DNA of 64,000 bases from NCBI GenBank assembly GCA_965204035.1, contig OZ241964.1:1905251-1969250 (forward strand). Direction: 5' to 3'. This DNA is from Thermodesulfobacteriota bacterium. Lineage in GTDB: Bacteria; Desulfobacterota_D; UBA1144; Nemesobacterales; Nemesobacteraceae. Positions 2,153-22,747 of this stretch are shown one piece after another; the first letter of the stretch is position 1, and the number at the start of each line of letters is the position of its first letter. Position numbers and translations under genes: made by a program. The notes under the pieces are model-generated. The model was given only the letters and a program-made list of their open reading frames with translations. It searched no databases and was not told the origin of the DNA.

Positions 2153-2234
2153 GGACGCCCCGACCTCCTGCGGACCCCCGAGCTCGGCCAGCGTCAGAAC
2201 CCGGACTTCAGCCAGGTCTTTGGCCCCTGCCTGC

Positions 2235-3974
2235 GTGTCGACCGCAAGGGTTAGCTCGGTCGGGGGGTCGCCGTATCCCGGTTATGCCTTTATCCGCCTG
2301 GCGCGGCAGTACGACGGGGAGATATCAGCCGACGCCCACGGATTCATTCTGACAGGAGTGTCGGATGTAGTCAGGGAGGTGTTCGACAATCCGGTATGGG
2401 GGGCCGGGCAGATCAGCAGGGTAACCGTGGAGAATCCGCCGACCGCCGCGTTGCGGGTCGAGGGCGCGATCAGCAGGCGTCAGTCCCTCTCGCAGTTCCT
2501 CGCGCAACTCGGAGAAATCAGCCCGTTCGAGATCCGTCAGCGTATCGGGGATACGCTCGTCAGGTTCCAGGCGGCTTCCGAGGTCGTGATTCTGCCCAGG
2601 GACGAGGCCGCGTACATCGAGGCTCCGGTTCTTACCTGGGCTGACTACGACTCCCGCGTAGGGACCCTGGAGGTACACTACAGGCCCGACCAGAAATCAG
2701 CGGAAATGCAACTCGACATATCCGAAGCCGTGGACTCGAACGGGCCGAGGCGGGAGGCGGACCTGCCCTACGTTTACGACTCGGAGACCGCCGACAGGGT
2801 TTTATATGCCGCCTCACAGAGGGAACTCAGCGGGCGGGAAACCGTGCGGTTTCGTATCGATCCCCGCCGCTCCGGATACCTGCCTCTCGGCCAGAGAATC
2901 AGGTTCCCCGCGGGGATAGTGAAGGGGGAGGATAGCGACTGGGTAATCCGCTCGCTTCGGCACTCGGCCGATAAATCGATCGTGGTGACCGCCACAAAAT
3001 ACCTGCCCGGACTGTTCGCCTATCCCGTGGACAGAACTTCGTTCTTTGACACGAACGCTGCTGTGTCGATTGAGACCGATTTTTCACAGACTCCGCCCGA
3101 ACCTCTGCGTAACCTGCGGGGTGAAACCCGGGAGACGTCCACGGGGTCCGGAGTGCATGAATGCGCTATCACGTACACGCCGCCGCGGGAGAATTACGGC
3201 GGGGCGGAGTTCTGGGCGGTTTACGGTACGGACGATCCTGTTCTCGTGACTCGGGAGGCTTCGCCGGGCAAGGCATTTTTCATCCTGCCGAAGCGGGTGC
3301 CGAGATACAAGGTCGTGGGATATTCCCTCTCGCCGGAACCGAACGTTCTCAGGGGCTACCCGGTGGAATTCGAAGTGAACCGGACGCCGGTTGCGAACGC
3401 CGGACCTGACAGAAGCGTATCGGCGGGCGCTTCGGTGACGCTCAACGGTTCGGGTTCCACCGACCCCGACAGCGACCCGCTTACGTATTCCTGGCGGCAG
3501 TTGTCAGGACCGGTGGTGACGCTCCAGAATTCGAATACCGTTACCCCGAGATTTACGGCGCCGTCGCGAAACTCATCATCACGCCTGGAGTTTGAATTGA
3601 CGGTATCGGACGGGTCGCAAAGCTCCACGGATTCCGTGATGATCAACGTGAGGGCGTATGTGTACGTTTCGCCGGTGCCGGGGCGTGTAACCGCGCGCTC
3701 ATGGTGGGTAGAGGCTCCGCTGCCCGGTGAGGACCCTGCCGCCGGCGGAGATCTTGGCTTCAGTGTCTGGGGATGGAGTTTCAGCCGCCCCCGGGCCGGT
3801 GCGCAACCGACACATTACGAGGCGCGGGATTCTGGGCGATTTCCGAATTGGTTGACCATCCCGGGCGAGGCACGGAGCGGGAAGAGGAGGGGATATGTAG
3901 AATGGGTCGAGTTCCGCGCCTGCAATTCCTCTGGCTGCGGTCCGGCGACGAGAATACGCAGGCCCTCGACTTAA
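2235..3974 (+). CDS. large hypothetical protein with PKD-like domain (ANAGPDRSVSAGASVTLNGSGSTDPDSDPLTYSW); possibly phage-tail / host-specificity-like
   Basis: Long ORF; PKD-type motif seen in the translation. The listed ORF start (2013) overlaps the convergent S24 gene, so the true start is probably a GTG/TTG downstream of 2152 (e.g. GTG at 2235). Tight coupling to the next gene. Confidence 0.4.
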   Translation: MSTARVSSVGGSPYPGYAFIRLARQYDGEISADAHGFILTGVSDVVREVFDNPVWGAGQISRVTVENPPTAALRVEGAISRRQSLSQFLAQLGEISPFEIRQRIGDTLVRFQAASEVVILPRDEAAYIEAPVLTWADYDSRVGTLEVHYRPDQKSAEMQLDISEAVDSNGPRREADLPYVYDSETADRVLYAASQRELSGRETVRFRIDPRRSGYLPLGQRIRFPAGIVKGEDSDWVIRSLRHSADKSIVVTATKYLPGLFAYPVDRTSFFDTNAAVSIETDFSQTPPEPLRNLRGETRETSTGSGVHECAITYTPPRENYGGAEFWAVYGTDDPVLVTREASPGKAFFILPKRVPRYKVVGYSLSPEPNVLRGYPVEFEVNRTPVANAGPDRSVSAGASVTLNGSGSTDPDSDPLTYSWRQLSGPVVTLQNSNTVTPRFTAPSRNSSSRLEFELTVSDGSQSSTDSVMINVRAYVYVSPVPGRVTARSWWVEAPLPGEDPAAGGDLGFSVWGWSFSRPRAGAQPTHYEARDSGRFPNWLTIPGEARSGKRRGYVEWVEFRACNSSGCGPATRIRRPST

Positions 3975-3990: not shown

Positions 3991-6027
3991 ATGGCAGATA
4001 GAAAATTATCAGAACTGGACACGGCGACCCGGGAGCAACTGCGAGACGATAGATCCCGCCTGCTTCTCACCGCGATAGTCGACGGCGTACAGAAGTCGTT
4101 ACAGCTTCCGGCAAGCCTGCTTACAGACACCGAGCTGACTAACCTTGAGTACCTGCGCCGCCTCGGACTGCTTGAGTCACGCACGGAGGATCTGCGGTTA
4201 GTCGAGGAAGATGCCTGGGCGGACGAAACCAGCGCCACGGATGCGGCGGTAGCGATAGCCGCGGGACTGACCGGACCGACCACCGACGGGATTATCGCCC
4301 TGTCTTACGCCTTGTCCGTCACCCCGCCATCCGCGGGTAACTACGCTATCTTTCTGCGTCTTGCGGTGGGGCGCAACGCGAACAATTACGGCGTCCGGAT
4401 CGCGTCGTCTCCCACGGTTCAGCTTATCGGCGGCTGGGCTTACAGGGTTACCCAGGGGGGATATGCCTATTATCAATGGCATCAGGAAACCGACGCCGGG
4501 GACACCTGGCACAGCTATAGAGCGCTTGACGCCTCGGAACTTGTCGCGATTCGTCATTCCGAAACGCTGACTACCGAGTTCCTGGGCGACATTACGGCGG
4601 CGGCGATACTTCGCCTCCTCACCGGGGACGCGGCCGCGCTTGCCGACAAGTGGCTCAAAATCAACGCTGCCGGCACCGGGCTTGATATAGCGGACGCGCC
4701 GAGCGGTGGCGGGGGAGGTGCCGGTTCAGCGGTGAAAACATACCGCTTCGCCCACGCGACGAACATTCCAACGGTGACGGTAACGCCCAGCAGTACCACG
4801 CGGCCGCTCATGGCGATTTTGAAGTTCACCTGGGTTTACGATGTGAGCCTGTATTCTCGAATTCCTGACAATACTTTCTACATCCAGATGCATGCGGGTC
4901 CAGCGGGTCCGCTCTCCGACCCCATCATCCCCGGAACAAAATTTACGCCGAAGCAAGGGACGGACAATGTTACGCGTACACGGTCCGAGGAAGTTATCGG
5001 ATTCTACACGCCGGACAGCCTCGATTCTCTACAGATCAGCGTTCGGACGCAGGGAGAAGCCACAGGCAAGGACTTCAAGGATTTCGAACTGGTAGTAATA
5101 GACTTCGGCGCCGTGGCTGCGCCCGGTTCGGCTTCCCCCGGGTTTGCCTCGGCCTCGAACCAAAAGACCTTCTACACCTACCCCCTGGCTTCCGATGGCT
5201 CGCCGCCGATTTTCGGGACCAGCGTGGTTTACTCAAGCGGGGAGTTTTCAAATGTACCTCCGGGATGGGCGGAAGCACCCGTCGTTCCGAAACCCGCGGG
5301 AAGGGTGGAATACATCGCGTTTGCCACCGGACACGGCGACGGCACGGTTACCGCATCCGTGACGAGAGTGACGGACGGCTTCACGGTCAGATGGTACGCG
5401 ACCAACGATGTGCTTTCGAGCAATTCCTATACCTATGACCCGAACGTTCATAATTACTACCGGCTCCGCCAATCTGACGGCACCTGGGGTCCGCTCCTGC
5501 CGATCAACTCAAACCCTGCCCCCGCGGTGACGAATAACAATTATTACGGTCTCGATGACTGGGCGATTCTCTATAGCAGGGCAAGCACCTTTGTCTCCGC
5601 TCAGACAGCGACCTTGTCAACAACACACTTAGGCACAATAGACTTGGATGATTACGAAGAAATTGTAGTTCAGATTGATAACAGAGGATTTGGCTCCGGC
5701 AATCACATGAGAAGCATCACGGTACCGCTTCCCACCCGGTTTATCGGGCTGCTTGCGGCCCATGACGATATCACCGACGACGCCAACCGGGGGAATATAT
5801 TTCGGGTCAGCGTTGGAGGAGCTGAAAGGGCTTCGGCAATCGCCTTGGTTGGCGATCTGAAACAAGGATGGGAACGTTACGACGGCGCGGAGATCAAGTT
5901 CATGTTCCGGAGAGCAAACGGGGCGGACGTGGGTAGCCGGGTAGTGGACTCAATTTACTTCTTTCCCCGGGTCGGGGGTTATAACGGCGGGGGAGACATA
6001 ATCAGCGTTGAATTCTTAGGGAGGTAA
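3991..6027 (+). CDS. large hypothetical protein (678 aa), Thr/Gly/Asn-rich; possibly tail-fibre/receptor-binding-like
   Basis: ORF lies 17 bp after the previous gene with an upstream AGGAGG. No recognised catalytic motif. Confidence 0.4.
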   Translation: MADRKLSELDTATREQLRDDRSRLLLTAIVDGVQKSLQLPASLLTDTELTNLEYLRRLGLLESRTEDLRLVEEDAWADETSATDAAVAIAAGLTGPTTDGIIALSYALSVTPPSAGNYAIFLRLAVGRNANNYGVRIASSPTVQLIGGWAYRVTQGGYAYYQWHQETDAGDTWHSYRALDASELVAIRHSETLTTEFLGDITAAAILRLLTGDAAALADKWLKINAAGTGLDIADAPSGGGGGAGSAVKTYRFAHATNIPTVTVTPSSTTRPLMAILKFTWVYDVSLYSRIPDNTFYIQMHAGPAGPLSDPIIPGTKFTPKQGTDNVTRTRSEEVIGFYTPDSLDSLQISVRTQGEATGKDFKDFELVVIDFGAVAAPGSASPGFASASNQKTFYTYPLASDGSPPIFGTSVVYSSGEFSNVPPGWAEAPVVPKPAGRVEYIAFATGHGDGTVTASVTRVTDGFTVRWYATNDVLSSNSYTYDPNVHNYYRLRQSDGTWGPLLPINSNPAPAVTNNNYYGLDDWAILYSRASTFVSAQTATLSTTHLGTIDLDDYEEIVVQIDNRGFGSGNHMRSITVPLPTRFIGLLAAHDDITDDANRGNIFRVSVGGAERASAIALVGDLKQGWERYDGAEIKFMFRRANGADVGSRVVDSIYFFPRVGGYNGGGDIISVEFLGR

Positions 6028-6030: not shown

Positions 6031-6786
6031 ATGGCAGGACCAAAAATTTACTATACTTATGACCGCAACACGTACCTCGTCAGAGGGGTTTTTTCCACGG
6101 CGGCGCTCGCCACTACCGCGGCGGCGGGAGACAGCGACCTTGTCGCGAACATCGCCGGACTGAACGAGGCGCAGGACGCCGCGGGCAACACGGTGGACGC
6201 CATGCTCGTCGAACCTGGTATCGACTGGTACCATTTTTCGGAGGCTCCTTATCTGCGTCAGCAATACCGGGATCTCCATCCGGTCAGGACCGGCGTACAG
6301 CAATTTCACGAGCGGATGCACGAGCTGTCCGCCATCGAGCGTCTGGTAGGCCCTGACTACCCGGAAATTACGGGTCTGATCGTCCGCTACACCCTCTACG
6401 GGCTGCATCAGGGCATGTACTTGATCAACCACCGCGCGGCGCTCTCTCCCGCCCAGATCGGGCAGATTCTAAGGTTTTCGGCACAGGGGCCTAACGATGT
6501 CAAGAGCGGCAGCCCAGCCTACGACCCGGACAATCCCCGGACGATAGTCCCGCTCATCGATGCCTGGCGTGAACCGCTCACTGATGAGGTAGCCATACAG
6601 AGAGCGAACCGTCCGCACGTGGTCCCACGAATTTACGCGAATATCACAGCCAATCCTCTCGTGGTGAACATAGCCCGCCGATCGTTTGCCGACATGATGA
6701 ACGAGGACATGCTCCTGGCCGGGGAGAGCGCTCCCAAGCCCGCACAGCTGCGGGAAGGAGAATGGGTCAATGAGATTAACAGGTGA
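6031..6786 (+). CDS. hypothetical protein (251 aa)
   Basis: ORF lies 4 bp after the previous stop with an upstream GGGAGG; same operon. Confidence 0.4.
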   Translation: MAGPKIYYTYDRNTYLVRGVFSTAALATTAAAGDSDLVANIAGLNEAQDAAGNTVDAMLVEPGIDWYHFSEAPYLRQQYRDLHPVRTGVQQFHERMHELSAIERLVGPDYPEITGLIVRYTLYGLHQGMYLINHRAALSPAQIGQILRFSAQGPNDVKSGSPAYDPDNPRTIVPLIDAWREPLTDEVAIQRANRPHVVPRIYANITANPLVVNIARRSFADMMNEDMLLAGESAPKPAQLREGEWVNEINR

Positions 6787-6840: not shown

Positions 6841-7614
6841 ATGACAGAAGCAGAAAAGCTTAAGAAGATTGCGATTTATGTCGGCGGCACGCTGACCCCT
6901 GAGCTCGCTGATGCGGCGACTCTCGTCCGCACGCTCGGCCTGCCCGGCGGAAAGCCCGAGGCATTCCGGCTCGCGGCCTGGAATGGGCATAATTTCGAGG
7001 TGGTGTCGGCGACCTCCCGCAGCGGATCGAGTTTTGTTCTCGACCATCGCGGTGGTGCGCACGAAATAGCCATGGTCATCTACTACCCGCTCGATCCGCG
7101 CATCACCGAGGCTGACGTGGCGGGGGCCGTAAGAGCGTATCCGAATGCCGATGGCTCGGGGTGGCTCTTCGCGCATACGGACGAGGGGACGCACCATGAC
7201 TACGAGCTCGTGCTGCTCGCGGCCTGCGACGGAGTTTTTCAGCCGCTTTTCCGGCAATACCAAGTAGACATGCTCAAGCCCGCTACGCGCACGCCCGCGG
7301 AAGAACGATTCAAGCTCCTGTCCGAGTTCTATGGCCAGGCCGTCATCAAGCTCCGCGATCTGGCACGCAGCAGGTTCCTCGGCGAGCGCGAGCAGCAGGC
7401 GCATCCGAAAGAAGGCTGGCTGGACCGCGACATCACGTCAGCGGTAGCGGCTGCGAAGGCTAAATGGAAGGAGAGCAGGCCAACTGATTTCGCTACGATC
7501 TCGTCGGCAGTCAGGTATTTGGAGCAGGCGCTTGCCATGCCCGCGGTTGAAACCCGCTGGGACCGGGATGCGAGGATCGCGGCCGAGCAGAAAGCCAAGG
7601 ACGAAGATGAGTAG
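6841..7614 (+). CDS. hypothetical protein (257 aa)
   Basis: Strong RBS aaggaggtattttcagATG. No recognisable family. Confidence 0.45.
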   Translation: MTEAEKLKKIAIYVGGTLTPELADAATLVRTLGLPGGKPEAFRLAAWNGHNFEVVSATSRSGSSFVLDHRGGAHEIAMVIYYPLDPRITEADVAGAVRAYPNADGSGWLFAHTDEGTHHDYELVLLAACDGVFQPLFRQYQVDMLKPATRTPAEERFKLLSEFYGQAVIKLRDLARSRFLGEREQQAHPKEGWLDRDITSAVAAAKAKWKESRPTDFATISSAVRYLEQALAMPAVETRWDRDARIAAEQKAKDEDE

Positions 7615-8852: not shown

Positions 8853-9620
8853 TCAGGGTTCAAAATTCCGGATTTTCATATAAGTAGATTCCAGTTGCTC
8901 TTTGTTGCCTAAGCACCAGCCACGCCCCTTATGAGTAAGGGAACAATGGGGTTCTTCATATTCGAGAGTAGGAGTAATTTTTATCATATCCCAGAATTCC
9001 AGCCTCCCAAAAGCATCATCCCTGTCCTGTTGGCTATACTCCAACATTTTCATTATTTTTATCAGACTTGATACGCCTCCGTCGGAATTATTCATATCCG
9101 GGTTGCAATAAAGAAACGTAAGAATAGTCAGTTCGGCTCCTTCAAATTCATCCTCATCGCAACTGGTACCGGTTGCGACAGGTTTTTTTTCTTTCTTTGC
9201 AGGTTTTTCCCCGCTGACGGCCTTGCGGAGCCTTTTTTCAATTTCCTCCTGCAGTTCCTCCCAGTCGCCCTGAGAAGTAGTGCCGTAAGAATAAGCCTCC
9301 CTCTGGTTCACGTCAAAAGGCAGTTTGTCCCGCTTGTCCTTCTCGCATATCAGCACTACCGGGACGTCATGACCGTGCGCGAAGCCCAGCTCGTACCAGA
9401 CGTTCGGATTGTCTTCGCTTATTTCAGCCAGGCAGACGGCGGATTTTTCAATTTCCTCCATGATCACCTGAATCTTTAATCTCGTCGCGTCATAATCCTC
9501 ATCCACGCGATAAGGAACCAGACCCGCTTTCTCTATAGCCGGTTTGTAGGTCTCTTCGCACCGTTTTTTATATTTATTCGTAAGTGGCTGAATGATGAAG
9601 CATTTTCTTTTCTCAGACAT
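8853..9620 (-). CDS. nucleoside 2-deoxyribosyltransferase-like / SLOG-fold domain protein with unknown C-terminal domain
   Basis: N-terminus KCFIIQPL...AVCLAEISEDNPNVWYELGFAHGHDVPVVLI resembles the NDT-like Rossmann signature (hydrophobic strand ... D/E..wElGyA.g..KPVi). Start taken at MSEKRK. Confidence 0.45.
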   Translation of the reverse strand: MSEKRKCFIIQPLTNKYKKRCEETYKPAIEKAGLVPYRVDEDYDATRLKIQVIMEEIEKSAVCLAEISEDNPNVWYELGFAHGHDVPVVLICEKDKRDKLPFDVNQREAYSYGTTSQGDWEELQEEIEKRLRKAVSGEKPAKKEKKPVATGTSCDEDEFEGAELTILTFLYCNPDMNNSDGGVSSLIKIMKMLEYSQQDRDDAFGRLEFWDMIKITPTLEYEEPHCSLTHKGRGWCLGNKEQLESTYMKIRNFEP

Positions 9621-9718
9621 TCTTCTAACCCCCAAATTGATTTTTTATCGGTTTAACTTCCTGATATATTCCCCTGTCTCTTCCAGACTGATTCTGATTT
9701 CTGGAAGGATATTCCCGT

Positions 9719-12700
9719 CTATACTTTCAGAGTCTCAATCTCGTCGTCAATCCTTCTCAACATTTTTCCGGCCCAGCGTCGGACTGTTCCTTTTTCATGA
9801 TTTTCGATGCTCCGCAAAGGTTCCATATAGCGGGCGAGATGTTCCGCCTCCGAACCCCATCCGGAAAAAGTACGCATGTTTGCCGCCAAAACGTCCAATA
9901 CTTCCTCGCGTTTCCCGAACTCATCAAGAAGACGCTTAATCACCGGATGAAATTCTTCGGATGCGGTTTCCCGGTCACGCTCTTTGAGCAATGGGAAAGT
10001 CTCCGCAACAAATGCCGGCCCGGTTTCGGGACTTGAGTAACACCACCCGAAAAGCATGTTCTGCGGAAGACTCAGAATTGGCTTTGTACCGTCTCCGGAA
10101 GACAGTTCTCCTCTTAACATCTTTGAGAGTCGCCATGAGCGCATTTCGCTTTCCGATGAGAGATCATCCTCTTCCGTCAGGACTCCGCTTATCAGCGGCC
10201 ACACAATTTCCGCAAAATTTGACAAGAGGCCAGGCAGAACGTGTGCGATCATCTTCTGGTCATTATACGTAAGGTCTTCGGTAGCGAGCTGCTTGGCGAT
10301 AGTGATTGCCACTTTCCGGGCATCGGTATCGGTGCTTCCTTTTGATATTATCCAGTTCATCAGAGTCTCGTAGCAGTGTTCATGGGACGACTTGTCATAG
10401 ACTTCTTCCGTATTGATCATGGGATATCTGGCCACGAGCAACAACTGGGGTCGGAAGTATTCTAAACATTCCTCTCGTTTGTACGCATATGAGTATATGA
10501 AATCCAGCGCGAGGCCGAAACTTGAAGAATTCTCTTTTTTGAGCAGCAAATCAAACAGAGGAATCACTTCGTCCGGTCGCAGTTTGGACAGCACACTGGG
10601 GTTCCATGCGAACATTTCACGGTGCGATATAAATCCCGCTTCCAAAGCTTCAATTAACAGTTCCACATCATCGGGGCTGATGCCGACATATAAAGGTAAT
10701 CTCGGAAAAACAGAAGCGAAAACGGAAGATCTTACCGACTCCCGTTTGAACCTCTCAACCTCTTTGGGTTCCCGTTCTTTCAGCCCCGTCATATAGCCGA
10801 CCAGAAAGTCGCCGTCTCGCTCTTCTTCCGAGGCAGACTCGAACGCTTCCGTTATTTTCTTTTTCCAGTAAAGGGGGGCCTCGGCCTGTTCCGCCATAAA
10901 GTACCCGAAAAGTCGGGCGTTTCGGTGTCGGCCGACGCACAATTCAGGTATGAGTTTCGTAAGCTCAGTCTCACGGACAAGCAGTTCTCCAGCGAGTTCT
11001 CTGAGCTTTTTGCACTGAAGTTCAAACATCTTATCGTGATCAATGTTTTTTCTCTTGAGATAATTAAAGGGCATCTCCGTGATCAGGAACCGGATTCGGT
11101 CATCCAAATCCTCCGGTTCCAAGGTGCGGATAAGGGCTTCCACTCTTCGCTCAACGAGGGGATCAATATTGTCTAGGCTGTATTCCAGAAATTTTTCAAG
11201 AGAATCAAGCGCTTCAGGCCAACATGGATGTTTTTCTTTTATCTCACGCGTCCATCTCTCGACATCTTCTATCAATCCGTCCGATACATACTTGCGCCAT
11301 TTCAGACCCAGCTCAACTCTCGCTCTTTTACCTATGTCGTCTGACCGTCTTGCAAGTTTCACCAAGTGACTGACGCACCCCTTAACATAATCCCAGAACT
11401 CCGATTCAGTCTCTGGCAACCATGGTTCAAGGGAGGGGCGGCTTCCGTGGATTTCCGGTCCCGTATAACGACGGAAACGATCACCTGTTTTCGCACCTTC
11501 AAGCAAGGCGTCGACTAGAACAGGCAGGTAGGAATCTGAGTGGTCCCAGTAATCATCCACAAGTTCTCCAATGAGATCAAGGCGTTTCCCTGAACCTGCG
11601 GCTGTGTTTGCTAAATACACGGGGAAAAGAGATTTAAACCGATCCCTGGCATTATTTATGATGTTTTCGCTTTCACCGCACGCAAGTTCCAGTAAAAGCA
11701 CCGCGGCATCTTCAAATGTATTTTCCGCAAATGCAATCTTTGAGAGCGTAGCAGTCAGGTCGCGGCGCGCGGTTCCGGTTATCTCCCTAATTTGAACTCG
11801 TTTCAGCGGACCCAGAATATCTTTTAGTACATCGACTGTGCCCCGAGGGTCTATTTCCGCAAGCCAGACCAGTATTCTCAAATTGCTTTTCCATACTCCC
11901 GGCGAACGCGAAAACATCCTATTTCCTAACATATGGCGAACTACCCTAGTCGCTATGGACTCCATGTTGAGAGAGGCAAGCTGTTTGGCCACCCTCTCCC
12001 GTAACCGTTCGGAAAGAGTTCCTACCAGAACTTCTTCCCGCTGTTTATTGCCCCATTCCTCCCACTGCCACCGAGCAAGAATGAGCGCTGCGCACTCCGG
12101 TTTTAGAATTGCGAGGCCTCCCTGCTGACGGACAACCCCGCGTCTTTTCAATTTCCGTACAGCTCCACGAAAATCTTCAACAGAAATGGTGTTTGAAAAT
12201 TCCGCGATCTCCTCGAGTTCTGTCTTTTCATCGTAAACCGCTTCTGTTGCCACGCCGCCGAACGCGCTTACAATCATCGCGGCTTCGTAGACATATTCCT
12301 GAGAATCCCCGCCAAGTAATTTTCGGACAAGGAAATCTTCATTCTCCGAAGCGGTCAATCCTTTCTCCATCCATGACCCGGCGATTATCCGGGCGCAAGT
12401 AATATCGCCTTCCGAAAAGACAATTATGCGTCGGCGGTCCGTCTCGATTATGCCGGGATCAAGAGATTTAATTATGTTTTCGACAAGAGAATTTTCAGCG
12501 GCGCCCACAACGAGCGTGTTTTCCGATTCTTCCGCGTTAGGGGGAATCTCCCAGCTGATGGTCACCAGAGAGAGACTGCTGACTGAATGCTTAACAATGC
12601 TGACAAGGTCTATGCGGGTCTCCTCCGAGCAACGGTCAACAACCAGCACAACCCGTTTCCCGGAGTTCGCAAGATTCGTCGCGTATTCCTTTATTTTCTG

Positions 12701-13735
12701 GGAACCGGCTTCCGACTCAACCGCGTAAAGCACTAGGTCGCTTAACTTCGCTCCCGAAATTCTCTCAGTTTTGGTCGGGCCGAAAGCCTCCAGAGCGAGG
12801 CGCGATTTTCCGGCACCTGACAGTCCGACGACCCGAGCGACACCTTTCGGAGTTTCGACAATGGCACGCAGTCTTTCCCGGAAACCCGGCAGCCGCGGGT
12901 CGTCAATCCAGGGCGAGTCGCAGTGTTCCGGCCTGCCGGACCAATGCTTCCAGTCCTCGAAAAAAGAGTCTATAAGTCCCGGTCTCGTCTTCCGTAGAAG
13001 CCAGATGGCTACAGAAGGATGATAGTTCACCCATGAAGCTATCTGGCCCGAATCGCGAAACTGGACAGAAGGGTCTTTGAAACCGTGGTTTCCCAAGTTT
13101 TTTCTTATTTCGTCTAAACGCCTATCAATCAGGTTTTGGGTGTAAGGACTGGAACAGAGCATTATGTATGAAGCGCCTCTTTCAAGCGCTTCTCGAACCA
13201 TGGGCCTTAGCTTGTTCTCCGCGGTAAGAACTTCATCTCCAGCTTTTTTGGGAGAAACATACCCCGTCTTTAACTGAAACTGGCAGAACCGTCTCGGGAG
13301 GAAATGCGTGCGCGGCGGGCCGTCCCGCCATTCTATGCGCGCGTCCTCGCCGCCGTCGGGGGCAGCCGTTTCGAAAGCGACGTGAATTCCATCTAACGGA
13401 AGATTACACTGCAGGGCTTCGGCAACTAGCAGCTTTTCGACCAAGGTGCTGAATTCAGAAGGCTTTAATCTTGAAACATCCTCATCCGTAACATCAAACG
13501 GGGTTGTCGCCGGTTTTTTCTCCTCGACTTCCTGCCCGGTTATCTCCGGCAGCCTTTCCGGTTTTTTCTCCAATAATCTCAGTATCCTTACCAAAGCTGC
13601 GGAAGGTTTTACCGAACCTTTTTCGTATTTCGCAAAAGCACTGGAACCGCCACCTAGCAACTCTCCGGCTTCGGCTTGCGACAAACCCAACGATTGCCTT
13701 ATTTCTTTTATTTTCTGGGGATTCATTCTTTTCAA
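9719..13735 (-). CDS. Avs/AVAST-like STAND NTPase: N-terminal XRE-type HTH + Mrr-like PD-(D/E)xK nuclease + P-loop NTPase + long helical-repeat C-terminus
   Basis: HTH: IKEIRQSLGLSQAEAGELLGGGSSAFAKYEKG. Mrr_cat-like: PSEFSTLVEKLL...DGGEDARIEW...CQFQLKTGYVS. Walker A VVGLSGAGKSRLALEAF; Walker B RVVLVVDRCSEE. About 800 aa of helical repeats follow. The listed start is a TTG; an in-frame ATG lies 9 nt downstream. Confidence 0.55.
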   Translation of the reverse strand: MKRMNPQKIKEIRQSLGLSQAEAGELLGGGSSAFAKYEKGSVKPSAALVRILRLLEKKPERLPEITGQEVEEKKPATTPFDVTDEDVSRLKPSEFSTLVEKLLVAEALQCNLPLDGIHVAFETAAPDGGEDARIEWRDGPPRTHFLPRRFCQFQLKTGYVSPKKAGDEVLTAENKLRPMVREALERGASYIMLCSSPYTQNLIDRRLDEIRKNLGNHGFKDPSVQFRDSGQIASWVNYHPSVAIWLLRKTRPGLIDSFFEDWKHWSGRPEHCDSPWIDDPRLPGFRERLRAIVETPKGVARVVGLSGAGKSRLALEAFGPTKTERISGAKLSDLVLYAVESEAGSQKIKEYATNLANSGKRVVLVVDRCSEETRIDLVSIVKHSVSSLSLVTISWEIPPNAEESENTLVVGAAENSLVENIIKSLDPGIIETDRRRIIVFSEGDITCARIIAGSWMEKGLTASENEDFLVRKLLGGDSQEYVYEAAMIVSAFGGVATEAVYDEKTELEEIAEFSNTISVEDFRGAVRKLKRRGVVRQQGGLAILKPECAALILARWQWEEWGNKQREEVLVGTLSERLRERVAKQLASLNMESIATRVVRHMLGNRMFSRSPGVWKSNLRILVWLAEIDPRGTVDVLKDILGPLKRVQIREITGTARRDLTATLSKIAFAENTFEDAAVLLLELACGESENIINNARDRFKSLFPVYLANTAAGSGKRLDLIGELVDDYWDHSDSYLPVLVDALLEGAKTGDRFRRYTGPEIHGSRPSLEPWLPETESEFWDYVKGCVSHLVKLARRSDDIGKRARVELGLKWRKYVSDGLIEDVERWTREIKEKHPCWPEALDSLEKFLEYSLDNIDPLVERRVEALIRTLEPEDLDDRIRFLITEMPFNYLKRKNIDHDKMFELQCKKLRELAGELLVRETELTKLIPELCVGRHRNARLFGYFMAEQAEAPLYWKKKITEAFESASEEERDGDFLVGYMTGLKEREPKEVERFKRESVRSSVFASVFPRLPLYVGISPDDVELLIEALEAGFISHREMFAWNPSVLSKLRPDEVIPLFDLLLKKENSSSFGLALDFIYSYAYKREECLEYFRPQLLLVARYPMINTEEVYDKSSHEHCYETLMNWIISKGSTDTDARKVAITIAKQLATEDLTYNDQKMIAHVLPGLLSNFAEIVWPLISGVLTEEDDLSSESEMRSWRLSKMLRGELSSGDGTKPILSLPQNMLFGWCYSSPETGPAFVAETFPLLKERDRETASEEFHPVIKRLLDEFGKREEVLDVLAANMRTFSGWGSEAEHLARYMEPLRSIENHEKGTVRRWAGKMLRRIDDEIETLKV

Positions 13736-13856
13736 CCCTCTGCTTTGACATATAATATCACATTGGTATAATATATCAATATGGTAAATATTTTCTCAGA
13801 AAAAATTGTTGCCACGCTGATTTAAAAACACAGGAATATCATGGAGGAATCGTGTT

Positions 13857-14060
13857 ATGCCAAGCGAGACAGACCAGATTGGGATTATCCTGAGGATAGA
13901 CAGCGATAGGTTCTACTGCGAAAAAAAACCCAGTCAATTTACGGAGGATCAATCCGAGGCCGACATACTTACGGATGCAGAAGCGGAAAGAATTCGGAGA
14001 ATCCTTGTTCACAGGGGCTTAAGAAGGGTCACCAAAATATCGGTGTTGCCGGGATATTGA
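13857..14060 (+). CDS. small hypothetical protein (67 aa)
   Basis: Good RBS ggaggaatcgtgttATG. No family recognised. Confidence 0.3.
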   Translation: MPSETDQIGIILRIDSDRFYCEKKPSQFTEDQSEADILTDAEAERIRRILVHRGLRRVTKISVLPGY

Positions 14061-14127: not shown

Positions 14128-14982
14128 ATGAACGCACAACTCAAAGAAAAGTTTATCAAGCGGATTGATCAGCTTTTAGAAAAAGCCGAGGAGGTAAAAG
14201 CTACTGAGGAGCCACCACCGACTAGTAGTGGCGGAATTGCCTTTATCGGATTCCCGGCAACATTAGACAGTATGGCCTTTTTCGAATGGAAGAGCAGTGC
14301 AGAAAATTTAATTGCCCAAATCGTTAGCAAAGACAGTTCCGACTACAAAAATTTCCTAGACGAAGTAAAAGATGAGCACAGAAGTCACGTCGACCGCGGT
14401 ATCGGGATTTTAAATTCTTTAAAAGATAGATTGCAATCGGGATTTCTTGATTTAACTTCAATTGAAGGTTCCCAAACACTCGGGGTTGATAATAGCAAGA
14501 CAATAAAGACATCTCGAGAGGTGAAAACGAAGAAAAACAAGGTTTTCGTGGTTCACGGACACAATGAAGAAATCCTGTTGAAAACCAAAGACTTTCTTGA
14601 AAAACTCCAGCTGGAACCAATAATTCTTAGAGAGTTGCCCGATGAGGGTCGGACGATTATCGAAAAGTTTATGGAATATTCCGCTCAGGCTGGATTTGCC
14701 GTTGTTCTATTAACCCCGGACGACAAAGGTGGAAGCAGATCAGATTCGTATAAAAATCAAAGGTTCAGGGCTCGGCAGAACGTAATCCTTGAACTCGGTT
14801 TTTTTCTTGGTTCTCTTGGAAGAAAACTTGTATGCGTCCTTTATCAAAGAGATGTCGAAATCCCCTCAGATTATAAAGGCGTGCTGTTTGTGGAAGTTGG
14901 CGACACCGATGGGTGGCGAATAAAGCTGGCCCGAGAGATAAAAAAAGCAGGTCTTGAAGTTGATCTAAATCTGCTTGCTTGA
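14128..14982 (+). CDS. protein with C-terminal TIR-like (SLOG/'predicted nucleotide-binding protein containing TIR-like domain') domain
   Basis: KVFVVHGHNEE...GRTIIEKF...AGFAVVLLTPDDKG...NVILELGFF matches the FVvHGhd...g.tI..k.e....a.fAvvLlTpDD signature of bacterial TIR-like/SLOG domains. The N-terminal ~140 aa are unknown. Confidence 0.5.
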   Translation: MNAQLKEKFIKRIDQLLEKAEEVKATEEPPPTSSGGIAFIGFPATLDSMAFFEWKSSAENLIAQIVSKDSSDYKNFLDEVKDEHRSHVDRGIGILNSLKDRLQSGFLDLTSIEGSQTLGVDNSKTIKTSREVKTKKNKVFVVHGHNEEILLKTKDFLEKLQLEPIILRELPDEGRTIIEKFMEYSAQAGFAVVLLTPDDKGGSRSDSYKNQRFRARQNVILELGFFLGSLGRKLVCVLYQRDVEIPSDYKGVLFVEVGDTDGWRIKLAREIKKAGLEVDLNLLA

Positions 14983-15037: not shown

Positions 15038-15748
15038 ATGCCTGAAAAAAAACTCTTTCTAATACCATGCTGCGCTTCCAAAAAACATGACGGCCATTCC
15101 CGCTCCGCCGCGCCCGACCCTCTAAGCCGTTTAGTTTCGGAGGCGACTTACTCCGCCATTCTGGAAACCAGGAGGGAGGTGCTCTCGGGCATTCGCCAAG
15201 ACAGGAGATACCTGTCCGGAAAATACGAAAAAAACAGGAGACTTGAACCAGGACCGGACTTCGGCGGACAGAGCGCATCCGGACTTTACCTCCCAGCCGT
15301 ACAAAGATATAAAGGCACGCTTTACTCAAACGCCCCCGCCCTTTCATCAGGGAGCGACCGGGGCGGCCGGATTCTCATCCTGTCGGCACTCTACGGACCG
15401 CTTCACCCCCTGAGCCGCATTCAGGACTACAACCTGCAGATGAGCGATAAGCCCGCCTACGGAACATGGAAGAAGCGCCTTCCGGGTTTTCTTCGGAACT
15501 ACGCTCTTTCTAACGGGATTCGGGAGGTTCACCTCTTTTTCGGAAGCAGCACGTACTATCTGAAAGCGGCGCAAGCCGCCGTGGAACCCCTGTTAAAAGA
15601 GAAACTGATTAAAAAAGCGATCCAGTATCACGTCGTTGGCGGAAGCACGAGGCTGACATCCCAGACACACGGCGAACTGCTCGAAGACTTTCTGAATCGG
15701 GGAAGCACAGACGAACTTCCCGGGAACGTCGAGGAGCGCGCTTTATGA
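15038..15748 (+). CDS. YaaA/DUF328 (UPF0246)-like protein
   Basis: LFLIPCCASKK (cf. YaaA LILISPAKT), GLYLPAVQRYKGTLY and RILILSALYGPLHPLSRIQDYNLQM (cf. YaaA RILSGLYGLLRPLD.I.PYRLEM). Overlaps the next gene by 4 bp. Confidence 0.45.
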   Translation: MPEKKLFLIPCCASKKHDGHSRSAAPDPLSRLVSEATYSAILETRREVLSGIRQDRRYLSGKYEKNRRLEPGPDFGGQSASGLYLPAVQRYKGTLYSNAPALSSGSDRGGRILILSALYGPLHPLSRIQDYNLQMSDKPAYGTWKKRLPGFLRNYALSNGIREVHLFFGSSTYYLKAAQAAVEPLLKEKLIKKAIQYHVVGGSTRLTSQTHGELLEDFLNRGSTDELPGNVEERAL

Positions 15749-16518
15749 GTGAGGAGTGCCGGTTCATACATGATCTCGCGGGGAAGCTCGACAGGCATAA
15801 ATTTCCTTTCGAACCCCAACGAATTCCCGAAAGCGGAATATATCTGCTCTTTGAGGCGGGGGAAACCGCCCTTGGAACCGACCGAATCGTTCACGTCGGA
15901 ACGCACTCGGGAAAGCGGGGGCTCAGGTCAAGGCTCCGGGAGCACGACACTCCCAACAAGGACCGGAGCATACTGAGGAAGAACATCGGCCGGGCCCTTT
16001 TGCGCGAAAGCGGGAATCCCTTTCTTGAGAAATGGAACCTTGACCTCACCTCAAGGGAGGCGAGACGGAAACACGGCCCGTCCGTCGACTTCGAACGACA
16101 GAGGGCAATTGAGGAGGCCGTGACGGACCGGATCCGGAGAACCTTTTCCTTCGTCGCGTTCCCCGTGGAAGACAAGGATGCCCGGTTCAGACTCAAGTCG
16201 GGGATTATATCCACCTTGTCACGATGCGACTGCTGTCGACCGTCGGAGCAATGGCTGGGCGGATATTCTCCAAGAAGCAAAATTCGAGAAAGCGGCCTCT
16301 GGCTCACGCAGGGGTTGGGCAAGGAACCGCTGTCAGGAGATGAAATCAGCTACTTGCGGGCAATGGTGCCGCGAACGGATGGAACATTCCAGAGCACCGG
16401 AATCCTTTCGAAAAGCTCGATGACCGGAAAACAAATTCCTCCCCGGAGAGTCGGACTCAACCGAATCGCCTCTCCACCTGTCCGGAATTATTCGGGCCAA
16501 TCAGAAAAGCGGACCTGA
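15745..16518 (+). CDS. GIY-YIG nuclease-domain protein
   Basis: GIYLLFEAGETALGTDRIVHVGTHSGKRGLRSRLREH gives the GIY-(x10-11)-YVG ... R...H motif. C-terminal ~150 aa unknown. ATGA overlap with the upstream gene. Confidence 0.55.
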   Translation: MSEECRFIHDLAGKLDRHKFPFEPQRIPESGIYLLFEAGETALGTDRIVHVGTHSGKRGLRSRLREHDTPNKDRSILRKNIGRALLRESGNPFLEKWNLDLTSREARRKHGPSVDFERQRAIEEAVTDRIRRTFSFVAFPVEDKDARFRLKSGIISTLSRCDCCRPSEQWLGGYSPRSKIRESGLWLTQGLGKEPLSGDEISYLRAMVPRTDGTFQSTGILSKSSMTGKQIPPRRVGLNRIASPPVRNYSGQSEKRT

Positions 16519-19391: not shown

Positions 19392-20840
19392 TTGATTCTA
19401 ATTGTCATACAGTGTATCTCAAATATCAAAAAATGGACAGAAAAAGATGCCGGTAAAAATAACCTCAAAAAGACCCGGGAGGAAAGCCCCTTGATAGGAC
19501 TCCGAGCAAAGAAGCTCTCCGATCCCCCACCCCCCGCGGGGGCGGCCGTAGGGGAGGGAGTAGCGCTTGACCGCGACCCCGGGACGGAGCCCGCGCCGAT
19601 AACGGTTCCCGACGCAGACCGCGAGGGACACATATTCACCATGGGCGCCACGCGAAGCGGAAAGACCCGCCTCGCCGAGGCCATGATAGAGCACGACATA
19701 AGGGCGGGGAGGAGCATCCTCTGGATAGACCCCAAGGGGGATAACGCCATTTTCTCAAAAATAGTGACGGTGGCCAGGGAGACGGGACGGGAGGACGATC
19801 TTCTTTTTTTCTCCCCCGTCCATCCCCGCTACTCGGTGAAGATAGACCCTCTCTCCCACTACTTCATGCCCGAGGAGGTCGTTAATCACGTGGTTTCGGG
19901 CGTGCGTGTGCGCGAGGAGTTCTACTTCAACATAGCCTACGAGGTGACGCTCGTCGTGGTGCAGGGACTCATGCTGATATCAAGATCCCTCGGGGAGCGG
20001 CCCGCGTTCACGTTCCGCAGGATAAAGGAGAACATAGGCTACAGGGAGCTTGAGGGCCTCCGCGCCCAGATAGCCGGGATAGAGGGCCCCGAAGCGGAGG
20101 AGGTCCTCGTGAACCTCGACCAGATTCTCTCCTCTCCCCAGGACTATTTCTCCAAGGTCTCCTCAAGTCTCAGGACCGTGATAACGTCGCTCAGCTCGGG
20201 TTCGGTGGGAGAAATCATCGGCAAGGACACCTCAAACCGGTTCATAGAGCGCCTCGAGGCGGGAAAGGGGGTGATACTGGTGGTGCAGACGGGTTCGCTC
20301 CTCACCAGGAAAACGGCCCACATAATGGCACGGGTGCTTCTCTCCATGGTGCAAAGCTTCGTGGGCAGGGTGCTTGCCTCGCAAAGGAAGATCGACCCTC
20401 CCCTCGCCGTATACGCCGACGAGGCGTCAAACGTTCTTTACTTCGGAATAGACGACCTTTTCAACAAGGCGGGCGGGGCCGGGGTGTGGCTTCACATGCT
20501 GACTCAGAGCAAGCAGGACCTCGTGGCCGAGCTCGGCCCGGCCTACACGGGAAAGATACTCGACAACACGAACACCAAGATAGTTTTCCGCGTCAACGAC
20601 CCCAACACCGCGGCCTACGCCTCCCGCATGGCCGGGACCGCGAAAAGGTTCTCCCCCATAATGAGCCTCGGCGGGGGTCTCAGCGTGAGGGAGATAGAGG
20701 AGAGCAGGGTGCCGCCCGAGAGTTTCCTCAGGCTCGGGCGAAGGGAGTTCTACGCCTTCACCTTCGACGGCATATACAGGGGCAGAACCCTTGATGTGCG
20801 CCCGTGCGAGGAAATACGGTTCCCGGAGATAAAGAACTGA
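19392..20840 (+). CDS. type IV coupling protein (VirD4/TraD/TraG-like) ATPase domain
   Basis: Walker A FTMGATRSGKT (cf. VirD4 xPTRSGKG), WIDPKGDNA (cf. conserved DPKGE), Walker B LAVYADEASN. No N-terminal TM helices in the ORF. The listed start is a TTG; true start uncertain. Confidence 0.55.
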   Translation: MILIVIQCISNIKKWTEKDAGKNNLKKTREESPLIGLRAKKLSDPPPPAGAAVGEGVALDRDPGTEPAPITVPDADREGHIFTMGATRSGKTRLAEAMIEHDIRAGRSILWIDPKGDNAIFSKIVTVARETGREDDLLFFSPVHPRYSVKIDPLSHYFMPEEVVNHVVSGVRVREEFYFNIAYEVTLVVVQGLMLISRSLGERPAFTFRRIKENIGYRELEGLRAQIAGIEGPEAEEVLVNLDQILSSPQDYFSKVSSSLRTVITSLSSGSVGEIIGKDTSNRFIERLEAGKGVILVVQTGSLLTRKTAHIMARVLLSMVQSFVGRVLASQRKIDPPLAVYADEASNVLYFGIDDLFNKAGGAGVWLHMLTQSKQDLVAELGPAYTGKILDNTNTKIVFRVNDPNTAAYASRMAGTAKRFSPIMSLGGGLSVREIEESRVPPESFLRLGRREFYAFTFDGIYRGRTLDVRPCEEIRFPEIKN

Positions 20841-22237: not shown

Positions 22238-22300
22238 ACTAAACTCAAGCGGGCGGCGTCTGTCCGTCCGAAAAAAAAACATATTAATGGAGGTAAAAAA

Positions 22301-22714: not shown

Positions 22715-22726
22715 GGACTGAAGAGA

Positions 22727-22747
22727 CGGGGGATTTCATTTCCCCCG
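22727..22747 (+). terminator. perfect 7-bp stem hairpin (cggggga-tttcatt-tcccccg) between the TraY-like and TraA-like genes; attenuator/terminator candidate
   Basis: Seen directly; no T-run follows (ggga). Confidence 0.3.

What the first reader, a model, noticed from the sequence alone, without database searches (positions are those of the whole stretch)
8853..13735. STAND NTPase with an unusual HTH + Mrr-like nuclease N-terminus (Avs-like), next to a SLOG/NDT-like gene
The 1338-aa protein combines an XRE-type HTH, an Mrr-catalytic-like PD-(D/E)xK segment (DGGEDARIEW...QFQLKTG), a P-loop NTPase (GAGKS / VVLVVDRCSEE) and about 800 aa of helical repeats. Nuclease-STAND-repeat is the architecture of Avs (AVAST) anti-phage sensors. 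The extra N-terminal DNA-binding HTH is not part of the described Avs types and may indicate autoregulation or a distinct subtype. It is co-oriented with a nucleoside-2-deoxyribosyltransferase-like (SLOG) gene 84 bp downstream.
Basis: partly seen in the sequence, partly recalled or inferred. Interest (0 to 1): 0.7.

Follow-up and report, generated by a model that had tools for sequence, protein, structure and literature searches.

The report
Self-regulated Avs8-like anti-phage nuclease sensor
This gene encodes a distant relative of the known bacterial anti-phage sensor Avs8 (PD-lambda-4) that carries an extra antitoxin-type DNA-binding domain, and matching DNA sites in its own promoter suggest it switches itself off. 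It is a new variant of a known system rather than a new kind.

Summary
Window 9719-13726 (- strand) encodes a 1335-aa protein with four parts: an MqsA-type HTH, a nuclease domain with an Mrr-type D-GG-x-D...QxK motif, a STAND NTPase and a ~730-aa helical sensor.

It is a full-length but distant (~21% identity) homolog of Avs8A/PD-lambda-4_A. The literature shows that protein binds phage HK97-fold major capsid protein and then degrades DNA.

The HTH is not a one-off. It defines a large clade spread across many phyla. It co-occurs with a conserved palindromic operator, ACCW-N3-WGGT, usually two copies about 29 bp apart in the gene's own promoter: 51 of 56 HTH-bearing loci against 2 of 19 HTH-less loci. 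The geometry matches the E. coli MqsA operator AACCT-N3-AGGTT. The window has two one-mismatch sites overlapping its predicted promoter. Autorepression is therefore the best reading of the HTH.

The downstream 255-aa gene does have an NDT/DNPH1/TIR-like fold. It is not a conserved partner: it is adjacent in only 2 of about 85 loci, and those two share one recombined DNA block.

The locus lies in the defence cargo of a conjugative element.

Verdict: new variant of a known kind, moderate interest.

The parts
9719..13726 (-). Avs8-like STAND nuclease gene (1335 aa from ATG 13726; stop at 9719-9721)
   Evidence: ORF list and translation. PADLOC PD-Lambda-4_A E 3.9e-70, residues 77-1331 against profile positions 4-1269 of 1283. 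hhalign against Enterobacter Avs8A: probability 100%, E 4e-40.
13538..13726 (-). N-terminal MqsA-type XRE helix-turn-helix domain (residues 1-63), followed by a flexible linker (residues 64-76, 13499-13537)
12941..13498 (-). PD-(D/E)xK-type nuclease effector domain (residues 77-262) with the Mrr-like signature PD124-G-G-E-D128 ... Q151-L-K153
   Evidence: D124, G126, D128, Q151 and K153 are invariant across HTH-bearing and HTH-less homologs. The motif aligns with PDGGVDV...FQAK of bona fide Avs8A. The AF2 model shows alpha-beta-beta-beta-alpha-beta topology. A direct Mrr_cat profile match is weak.
11927..12859 (-). STAND NTPase module (residues ~290-600): Walker A G301-LSGAGKS308, Walker B VVLVVD364-R-C366, helical and winged-helix subdomains
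9722..11926 (-). C-terminal alpha-helical repeat sensor (residues ~601-1335), homologous to the Avs8A sensor
   Evidence: The PADLOC profile and the hhalign alignment run to the C-terminus: query 87-1337 against Avs8A 3-1267. The ligand is inferred from the literature, not tested.
13775..13785 (-). Operator-like site 1, ACCATATTGAT (one mismatch to ACCW-N3-WGGT). It overlaps the predicted -35 hexamer.
13757..13767 (-). Operator-like site 2, ACCAATGTGAT (one mismatch). It lies in the spacer and extended -10 of the predicted promoter.
   Evidence: TACCAWNKTGATAT occurs twice here and nowhere else in the window (expected 0.07).
13752..13779 (-). Predicted sigma-70 promoter of the gene: TTGATA, 16 nt, TATTAT with an upstream TG
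   Evidence: Consensus scan, 10 of 12 matches. This is a prediction only.
8853..9620 (-). Co-oriented 255-aa gene: an N-terminal NDT/DNPH1/TIR-like domain plus a C-terminal winged-helix-like domain. It is a neighbour, probably an independent defence-island cassette.
   Evidence: AF2 model with pLDDT 82.8. Foldseek hits to NDT, DNPH1 and TIR. PADLOC TIR effector E 6.9e-9. Not adjacent to the STAND gene in any of 76 genome loci; adjacent only in the window and L078.

Best explanation
The gene encodes a single-protein anti-phage pattern-recognition receptor of the Avs8 (PD-lambda-4) superfamily, carried in the defence cargo of a conjugative element.

Proposed mechanism:
1. Resting state (inferred here). 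The flexibly tethered N-terminal MqsA-type HTH binds two palindrome-like operators that overlap the gene's own promoter. This keeps expression of a dangerous nuclease low.
2. Infection (inferred by homology). The C-terminal helical-repeat sensor binds a conserved phage protein, most likely monomeric HK97-fold major capsid protein as for Avs8. Binding drives ATP-dependent oligomerisation through the STAND module.
3. Effector step (inferred by homology). Oligomerisation brings the Mrr-like PD-(D/E)xK domains together. They degrade double-stranded DNA and abort the infection.

The downstream NDT/TIR-like gene is a separate defence-island cassette, not a required partner.
For: Shown here:
- Full-length homology to Avs8A. 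PADLOC PD-Lambda-4_A gives E 3.9e-70. BLASTP gives 21% identity and E 5e-27. hhalign gives probability 100% and E 4e-40 over 1198 columns against a protein that scores 1777 bits on the PD-Lambda-4_A model.
- Nuclease residues D124, D128, Q151 and K153 and Walker residues K307 and D364 are invariant.
- A STAND fold for the NTPase module.
- The HTH is nearly superimposable on the DNA-binding domain of MqsA and is joined by a low-confidence linker.
- Operator enrichment. Exact ACCA-N3-TGGT occurs 44 times in 11,256 nt upstream of HTH-bearing homologs, against 23 times in 1.07 Mb of the same loci.
- Operator and HTH co-occur. The relaxed motif is present in 51 of 56 HTH loci and 2 of 19 HTH-less loci, Fisher p 1.3e-10.
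- Operator spacing is 27-30 bp in 27 of 35 site pairs.
- In 9 of 51 loci the distal site contains CATAAT with a -35 hexamer matching TTGACA at 5 or more of 6 positions 16-18 nt upstream. The out-of-register control rate is 3.7%.
- An HTH-less subclade nested within the HTH clade lacks the site.
- The window has two one-mismatch sites that overlap its predicted promoter.
- Neighbours in the window and in homologous loci are defence genes: PDC-S35, PDC-M57B, TIR/SEFIR, SIR2, Fic, MmeI, ApeA and Hachiman.

From the literature:
- EcAvs8A binds lambda gpE and other HK97 capsid proteins with Kd 14-127 nM. It then degrades dsDNA with Mg2+ and ATP and needs its nuclease active site. Avs8B is dispensable (bioRxiv 10.1101/2025.07.02.662641).
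- Avs8 sensing of major capsid protein was confirmed independently (bioRxiv 10.64898/2026.01.04.697583).
- MqsA binds AACCT-N3-AGGTT (PMC4894380).
Against: - Identity to experimentally studied Avs8A is only about 21%, so the trigger could differ.
- Pfam Mrr_cat matched only 1 of 13 nuclease-domain sequences (E 0.0018). hhalign against E. coli Mrr aligned only the 13-residue DGGxD motif, probability 2.5%. The nuclease fold was not tested on its own, because the fold searches were dominated by the NTPase and HTH domains.
- The window's own operators are off-consensus: TGAT instead of TGGT, and 18 bp apart instead of about 29 bp.
- No binding, expression or phage data exist for this clade.
- The loci are phylogenetically related, so the Fisher p-value overstates independence.
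- Five of 56 HTH loci show no site within 180 nt.
Confidence: 0.62

Rival explanations
1. The protein is the same Avs8-like nuclease sensor, but its sensor recognises a phage protein other than the major capsid protein. The clade would then be a separate Avs family with its own trigger.
For: Identity to enterobacterial Avs8A is only 20-21%, and BLASTP alignment fades after about residue 1009. Lee et al. define Avs families by sensor structural cluster and find that different families sense different core phage proteins.
Against: The profile-profile alignment covers the sensor to the C-terminus (query 87-1337 against 3-1267, probability 100%). The PADLOC Avs8A model is matched end to end.
Confidence: 0.3
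2. The HTH is not mainly a transcriptional autorepressor. It tethers or targets the nuclease on DNA, provides constitutive dimerisation, or holds the effector inactive. The promoter sites would be incidental or secondary.
For: The HTH sits directly next to the nuclease on a flexible linker. MqsA's C-terminal domain is also its dimerisation domain (my own knowledge of PDB 3GN5 and 3O9X, not tested here). The window's sites are degenerate.
Against: The sites are concentrated in the 25-105 nt before the start codon, about 180-fold above the rest of the same loci. They come as pairs with fixed spacing and often overlap -10 or -35 elements. They disappear when the HTH is absent. That is the signature of an operator.
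Confidence: 0.15
3. The STAND protein and the downstream NDT/TIR-like protein form an obligate two-gene system, in which the 255-aa protein is a second effector or a modulator analogous to Avs8B.
For: The two genes are co-oriented, 83-98 nt apart, with no terminator predicted between them. The same pair is found in L078. EcAvs8 is also a two-gene operon.
Against: None of 76 genome loci, and none of the three closest metagenomic relatives (80%, 67% and 67% identity), has this gene next to the STAND gene. In MAG OY763921 the homolog sits alone about 14 kb away. The window and L078 pairs share one recombined DNA block, with the breakpoint inside the last ~35 codons of the STAND gene, so they count as a single event. 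No PD-Lambda-4_B model was matched. Avs8B is dispensable in E. coli.
Confidence: 0.08
4. It is a ligand-responsive transcription factor of the STAND class, like MalT or AfsR, whose nuclease-like domain is inactive.
For: It combines an N-terminal DNA-binding domain, a STAND NTPase and helical repeats, and it has conserved operators.
Against: The catalytic D...D...QxK residues are invariant across 18-80% identity. The protein is a full-length homolog of a proven DNase. The HTH is XRE/MqsA-type, not LuxR or SARP. The exact motif is rare elsewhere in the fetched loci and the window's site variant occurs only at this promoter. The context is a defence island.
Confidence: 0.03

Closest known systems
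Avs8 / PD-lambda-4 (Avs8A), E. coli ECOR07 and other Enterobacteriaceae
   Same: The domain order is the same: Mrr-like nuclease, P-loop STAND NTPase, long helical sensor. The two are homologous over about 1200 aligned columns. The DGGxD...QxK and Walker motifs are shared. Both occur in defence islands.
   Different: Identity is only about 21%. This protein has an extra 63-residue MqsA-type HTH plus a linker at the N-terminus, and cognate operators in its promoter. There is no Avs8B-like second gene. It comes from a Thermodesulfobacteriota-type conjugative element rather than an enterobacterial island. Its trigger and activity are untested.
MqsA (YgiT) antitoxin of the MqsR/MqsA type II toxin-antitoxin system
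   Same: The HTH domain is 44-45% identical to MqsA's and superimposes at 0.8 A. The operator has the same geometry: a 4-5 bp inverted half-site with a 3-nt spacer, ACCW-N3-WGGT against AACCT-N3-AGGTT. Sites typically lie in the gene's own promoter, which implies autorepression.
   Different: There is no N-terminal zinc-ribbon toxin-binding domain and no MqsR toxin gene. The residues at MqsA's base-contacting positions N97 and R101 (from my own knowledge of the MqsA-DNA structure 3O9X) are S or R, and K, in this clade. The HTH is fused in cis to the toxic effector rather than neutralising a separate toxin.
Avs1-4 (AVAST) and other Avs families with Mrr/Cap4-type nuclease effectors
   Same: They share the tripartite effector-STAND-TPR-like logic. 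A phage protein is bound directly, the protein oligomerises, and a nuclease is activated (literature).
   Different: The sensor family is different. In the papers I could search I found no Avs described with a fused autoregulatory HTH.
Separately encoded regulators of defence systems (CapH/CapP, BrxR-type)
   Same: An XRE-type HTH is used to keep a toxic defence system repressed. The HTH gives a weak hit to the PADLOC capH model, E 3.5e-5.
   Different: Here the repressor domain is part of the sensor-effector polypeptide itself. The amount of repressor and the amount of effector are therefore the same molecule.

Membership tests
Avs8 / PD-lambda-4_A | Full-length match to the family profile | tested here: met
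   PADLOC PDLC03991: E 3.9e-70, residues 77-1331 against profile 4-1269 of 1283. For scale, a true enterobacterial member scores 1777 bits, so this is a distant member.
Avs8 / PD-lambda-4_A | Homology to a bona fide Avs8A across nuclease, NTPase and sensor | tested here: met
   hhalign: probability 100%, E 4e-40, 1198 columns. BLASTP: 21% identity, E 5e-27.
Avs8 / PD-lambda-4_A | N-terminal Mrr-family PD-(D/E)xK nuclease with intact catalytic residues | tested here: inconclusive
   The DGGxD...QxK motif is invariant and the model has alpha-beta-beta-beta-alpha-beta topology. However, Pfam Mrr_cat matched only 1 of 13 members at E 0.0018, and hhalign against E. coli Mrr covered the motif only. 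The domain could not be fold-searched on its own.
Avs8 / PD-lambda-4_A | STAND P-loop NTPase | tested here: met
Avs8 / PD-lambda-4_A | Activation by HK97-fold major capsid protein, and phage defence | not testable with these tools
   Known only for EcAvs8.
Avs8 / PD-lambda-4 system | Second gene Avs8B (PD-Lambda-4_B) in the operon | tested here: not met
   The downstream protein gives no PD-Lambda-4_B hit and has an NDT/TIR-like fold. Avs8B is reported to be dispensable.
MqsA antitoxin (type II TA) | C-terminal XRE-HTH DNA-binding domain | tested here: met
MqsA antitoxin (type II TA) | N-terminal CxxC...CxxC zinc domain that binds the MqsR toxin | tested here: not met
   Only profile positions 70-130 of 131 are matched, and the protein starts at the HTH.
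MqsA antitoxin (type II TA) | Adjacent MqsR-type toxin gene | tested here: not met
   The neighbours are a small ORF followed by the PDC-S35 TIR gene, and an NDT/TIR-like gene.
MqsA antitoxin (type II TA) | Palindromic operator in the gene's own promoter | tested here: met
   ACCW-N3-WGGT is present in 51 of 56 clade members. The window has two one-mismatch sites. Binding itself was not tested.
STAND transcription factors (MalT / AfsR-SARP / GutR) | LuxR- or SARP-type DNA-binding domain and no enzymatic effector | tested here: not met
   The HTH is XRE/MqsA-type. A nuclease domain with invariant catalytic residues is present.
Nucleoside 2-deoxyribosyltransferase / TIR-like (downstream gene) | Flavodoxin-like NDT/DNPH1/TIR fold with a conserved Glu after beta-3 | tested here: met
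   Foldseek hits to NDT 9emx (6e-5), DNPH1 and TIR domains. The N73-V-W-Y-E77-x-G79 motif is invariant. Pfam NDT is below threshold for the window copy (E 0.048).

The most novel reading that the evidence does not exclude
The fused HTH may be more than a brake. It could couple phage sensing to transcription. When the sensor binds its phage ligand and the protein oligomerises, the HTH would leave the operators. That would give a positive-feedback burst of receptor expression. In loci such as this window it would also de-repress a divergent defence operon whose perfect-consensus promoter overlaps the same operators: TTGACA-16-TATAAT at 13745-13772 on the + strand, facing a small ORF and the PDC-S35 TIR gene. 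An Avs receptor would then act as an infection-responsive regulator of neighbouring immunity genes as well as an effector.
Probability: 0.15. Interest if true: 0.75.

Novelty: new variant of a known kind. Interest (0 to 1): 0.5.

Why it matters
Avs receptors are lethal once activated, yet little is known about how their expression is kept safe. This clade suggests one solution. An antitoxin-type repressor domain is built into the receptor itself, with a recognisable operator conserved across many phyla. That makes the hypothesis directly testable by gel shift, reporter fusion and a delta-HTH mutant.

It also extends the capsid-sensing Avs8 superfamily far beyond Enterobacteriaceae. Members occur in Thermodesulfobacteriota, Chloroflexota, Nitrospinota, Alpha- and Gammaproteobacteria, Legionella and Bradyrhizobium.

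There is a practical annotation point as well. Some of these ~1340-aa proteins are named 'MqsA family antitoxin' or 'transcriptional regulator YiaG' in public databases, because the HTH is the only domain that standard profiles recognise.

Tried and rejected
1. Conserved partner gene. All-against-all clustering of ORFs within 1.5 kb of 76 homologous loci found no conserved neighbour. The recurrent divergent upstream ORFs turned out to be a mix of Fic, TIR/SEFIR, SIR2, AAA_21 and restriction genes.
2. A separately encoded HTH in the HTH-less subclade. I looked for a split gene in L084. None is present and the HTH is simply absent.
3. Assigning the nuclease domain to Mrr_cat by sequence gave marginal or no significance. 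The tests were Pfam on 13 domain sequences, a profile against PDB sequences, and hhalign against E. coli Mrr.
4. Fold searches with the 620-residue model returned only NTPase and HTH matches in the rows shown, so the nuclease fold could not be tested separately.
5. Looking up the exact protein's contig returned no record, although a 100%-identical protein is listed on a 2.0-Mb contig. The source organism is therefore inferred only from its nearest relatives, which are Thermodesulfobacteriota MAGs.
6. Phage records: the only hit was to the HTH. Plasmid records contain only HTH-less relatives.
7. The exact consensus ACCW-N3-WGGT occurs in the window at chance level and not at this promoter. The window uses a one-mismatch variant.
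8. Literature searches for a fused HTH in Avs proteins found nothing. The library lacks many subscription-journal papers, so this is not proof that no such description exists.
Full report
**1. Observation**

The - strand ORF 9719..13735 is the longest in the region. The probable start is the ATG at 13726, with GAGGG 9-13 nt upstream, giving 1335 aa. The region from 8 to 15 kb has about 47-50% G+C, against 55-64% on either side.

**2. Domain identities**

- Standard profiles recognise only the N-terminus. Pfam MqsA_antitoxin gives E 1.9e-16, matching profile positions 70-130 of 131, which is the DNA-binding half of MqsA. NCBIfam TIGR03830 scores above its cut-off.
- A profile built from 26 homologs hits the MqsA C-terminal domain structures 3fmy, 2kz8 and 3gn5/3o9x at E 4e-16.
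- The model shows a disordered linker at residues 65-73. An alpha-beta-beta-beta-alpha-beta domain follows at about residues 89-224. A P-loop NTPase with helical and winged-helix subdomains comes next.
- The best Foldseek matches to the NTPase part are STAND proteins: PH0952, SAMD9, CED-4, Apaf-1/Dark and plant NLR resistosomes.

**3. What family it belongs to**

The PADLOC library gives a full-length match to PD-Lambda-4_A: E 3.9e-70, residues 77-1331 against profile positions 4-1269 of 1283.

PD-lambda-4 has been renamed Avs8. EcAvs8A is described as an Mrr nuclease plus a P-loop STAND plus repeats. The published findings (10.1101/2025.07.02.662641) are:
- It then degrades dsDNA in the presence of Mg2+ and ATP.
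- It needs its nuclease active site for defence.
- It does not need the second gene, Avs8B.

Lee et al. confirm that Avs8 senses the capsid protein (10.64898/2026.01.04.697583).

I obtained a bona fide enterobacterial Avs8A from a plasmid, L077:4004-7855. It scores 1777 bits on the PADLOC model. Against it, the window protein gives BLASTP 21% identity and E 5e-27. A profile of the window clade gives hhalign probability 100% and E 4e-40 over 1198 columns, reaching both C-termini. The catalytic stretch aligns as PDGGEDARIEW...FQLK against PDGGVDVHVQL...FQAK.

**4. Nuclease domain**

In an alignment of nuclease domains from HTH-bearing and HTH-less relatives (18-61% identity), D124, G126, D128, Q151, K153 and Y187 are invariant. 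This is the DGGxD...QxK signature also seen in E. coli Mrr (tgDGGIDG).

Statistically the link to Pfam Mrr_cat is weak. One of 13 sequences matched, at E 0.0018. There was no PDB sequence hit. hhalign against Mrr covered only the motif.

I therefore treat 'PD-(D/E)xK nuclease' as well supported by motif, topology and homology to a proven DNase. 'Mrr family' is the literature's assignment, and I could not confirm it independently.

**5. The HTH is a clade character with a cognate operator**

How common the HTH is:
- Of the 120 best homologs, 104 carry the HTH motif.
- In an exhaustive search of 1.84 billion cluster representatives, 934 clusters match at E <= 1e-30. Among the top 150, about 59 begin at the HTH (28-59% identity). 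About 55 are HTH-less proteins of ~1260 aa that begin at query residue 72-83 (24-29% identity).
- Genome loci with the HTH form come from many lineages: Thermodesulfobacteriota, Bradyrhizobium, Reyranella, Methylocystis, Luteibacter, Legionella feeleii, Dehalococcoidia, Dadabacteria, Nitrospinota, Binatia, a Synechococcus MAG and Spirochaetia.

The operator:
- Reading the 120 nt upstream of these genes revealed a palindrome, typically (G/C)ACCATAATGGT(G/C), usually in two copies.
- Exact ACCA-N3-TGGT occurs 44 times in 11,256 nt upstream, in 36 of 56 loci. In the remaining 1.07 Mb of the same loci it occurs 23 times.
- With the relaxed motif ACCW-N3-WGGT and one mismatch allowed, 51 of 56 HTH loci have a site and 30 have two or more. 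The spacing is 27-30 bp in 27 of 35 site pairs.
- Only 2 of 19 HTH-less loci have a site, both chance-like. This set includes the true Avs8A locus and an HTH-less subclade nested within the HTH clade. Fisher p is 1.3e-10.
- In at least 9 of 51 loci the distal site supplies a CATAAT -10 box, with a -35 hexamer matching TTGACA at 5 or more of 6 positions 16-18 nt upstream (7 of the 9 are exact). The out-of-register control rate is 3.7%.

Comparison with MqsA:
- The geometry equals the MqsA operator AACCT-N3-AGGTT (PMC4894380).
- The residue at MqsA's R101 position is K in 104 of 104 sequences. The residue at N97 is R in 60, S in 43 and K in 1.
- R-type proteins go with G/C-flanked, stricter sites. 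S-type proteins, which include the window clade, go with T/A-flanked, looser sites. This is suggestive, but it is confounded by base composition.

**6. The window's own promoter**

Two 14-mers, TACCATATTGATAT (13786-13773) and TACCAATGTGATAT (13768-13755), occur only here in the 64 kb, against an expectation of 0.07. Each has one mismatch to the core motif (TGAT instead of TGGT). They are 18 bp apart, not about 29 bp.

They overlap the predicted - strand promoter: TTGATA at 13779-13774, a 16-nt spacer, and TATTAT at 13757-13752 with an extended TG. They also overlap a perfect 12-of-12 + strand promoter at 13745-13772. That promoter faces a 67-aa ORF (13857-14060, RBS GGAGGA) and the TIR gene at 14128-14982.

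**7. The neighbour**

What the downstream protein is:
- The 255-aa protein (8853-9620) belongs to a family with more than 1200 members.
- Its N-terminal domain has invariant residues including N73-V-W-Y-E77-x-G79.
- An AF2 model (pLDDT 82.8) matches nucleoside 2'-deoxyribosyltransferase, DNPH1 and TIR domains.
- PADLOC gives a TIR-effector hit at E 6.9e-9.

Whether it is a partner:
- It is not next to the STAND gene in any of 76 genome loci.
- It is also absent from the neighbourhoods of the three closest metagenomic relatives, whose neighbours include a radical-SAM gene, a SEFIR/TIR gene, a PIN_4 gene and MmeI.
- In MAG OY763921 it sits alone next to ApeA and Hachiman genes, about 14 kb from that genome's STAND gene.
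- The only other adjacent pair is L078. There the STAND protein is about 45% identical to the window's over the sensor but 83% identical over the last ~35 residues. The 3' end, the intergenic region and the downstream gene are near-identical at the DNA level.
- The two pairs are therefore one recombined cassette, not two independent associations.

**8. Context**

The window carries several mobile-element and defence features:
- An IS transposase at 54-1007.
- Type IV secretion and conjugation genes: coupling protein 19392-20840, HD protein 20804-22237, TrbI 24729-25886 and TraC 26392-28824. This resembles the arrangement in L079.
- PADLOC candidate systems PDC-S35 (14128-14982) and PDC-M57B (15745-16518).

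The locus is therefore the defence cargo of a conjugative element.

**9. Conclusion**

The family is the already characterised Avs8/PD-lambda-4, at large evolutionary distance.

What is new is a large HTH-fused clade with a conserved operator of MqsA geometry in its own promoter. This argues for built-in autorepression. I found no description of it in the searchable literature.

Homology, motifs, folds and operator statistics are shown here. DNA binding, repression, capsid sensing and DNase activity are inferred.

Noticed in passing
window 8853-9620 (-), alignment A3: Many distant members of the downstream NDT/TIR-like family (33-36% identity, for example from Bacteroidota) end in an acidic (D/E)DD(I/L)PF tail. 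This resembles the C-terminal tip of bacterial SSB, from my own knowledge. The window copy lacks it and ends in NFEP.
   Followed up: partly
window 13745-13772 (+) and 13857-14060 (+): A perfect sigma-70 consensus promoter (TTGACA-16-TATAAT with TG) overlaps the two operator-like sites. It faces a 67-aa ORF with a strong RBS that precedes the TIR gene, so the divergent operon may share the HTH's operators.
   Followed up: partly
window 14128-14982 (+), 15038-16518 (+): The 284-aa protein has a CAP12/Pycsar-type TIR domain (PF10137, 4e-37) and matches PADLOC candidate system PDC-S35 (3e-69). ORF 15745-16518 matches PDC-M57B (3e-78). The ORF before it (15038-15748) has weak YaaA/DUF6884 similarity.
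   Followed up: partly
window 19392-28824 and 54-1007: Conjugative-transfer genes (T4SS coupling protein, HD-domain protein, TrbI, TraC) and a DDE transposase indicate an integrative conjugative element that carries the defence island. The same gene set flanks the homologous island in L079.
   Followed up: partly
L078:6620-7526 versus window 8853-9760: The window and L078 share near-identical DNA for the last ~100 nt of the STAND gene, the intergenic region and the downstream gene. The rest of the two STAND genes is only about 45-60% identical at the protein level. This points to a recombination breakpoint inside the 3' end of the gene.
   Followed up: yes
homologs P0020, P0118, P0012 and others: Source databases name some of these ~1340-aa proteins 'type II TA system antitoxin MqsA family protein' or 'DNA-binding transcriptional regulator YiaG'. 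This is a misleading annotation driven by the only domain that standard profiles detect.
   Followed up: no
L084:4001-8083 and P0047/50/53/69/72/76: A subclade at 44-50% identity starts at 'MTGRENAAGK', exactly where the HTH linker ends. It has neither an HTH nor an operator upstream, which indicates secondary loss of the whole regulatory module.
   Followed up: yes
L001-L059 upstream regions: The residue at MqsA's N97 position (R or S) tracks with the operator flank (G/C or T/A) and with how strict the site is. This could be co-evolution of protein and site, or it could reflect genome G+C content.
   Followed up: partly
L080:9477-10765: In the closest relative (80% identity), the STAND gene overlaps by 4 nt a downstream radical-SAM gene (302 aa) followed by a DUF6375 gene. 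This is a different candidate accessory pair.
   Followed up: no
window 30000-34500 and 48000-52000: Two further low-G+C stretches (40-49%) contain ORFs with no Pfam match, for example 31148-31915, 32323-33318 and 33315-34433. They may be additional cargo islands.
   Followed up: no
window 2013-3974 (+): A 653-aa protein has a PKD/K319L-like Ig domain (E 1e-17) and a below-threshold Phage-tail_3 hit (E 1.7e-4, 21.9 bits against a 23-bit cut-off). It is followed by large ORFs with no family match (3991-6027, 6031-6786, 6841-7614).
   Followed up: no
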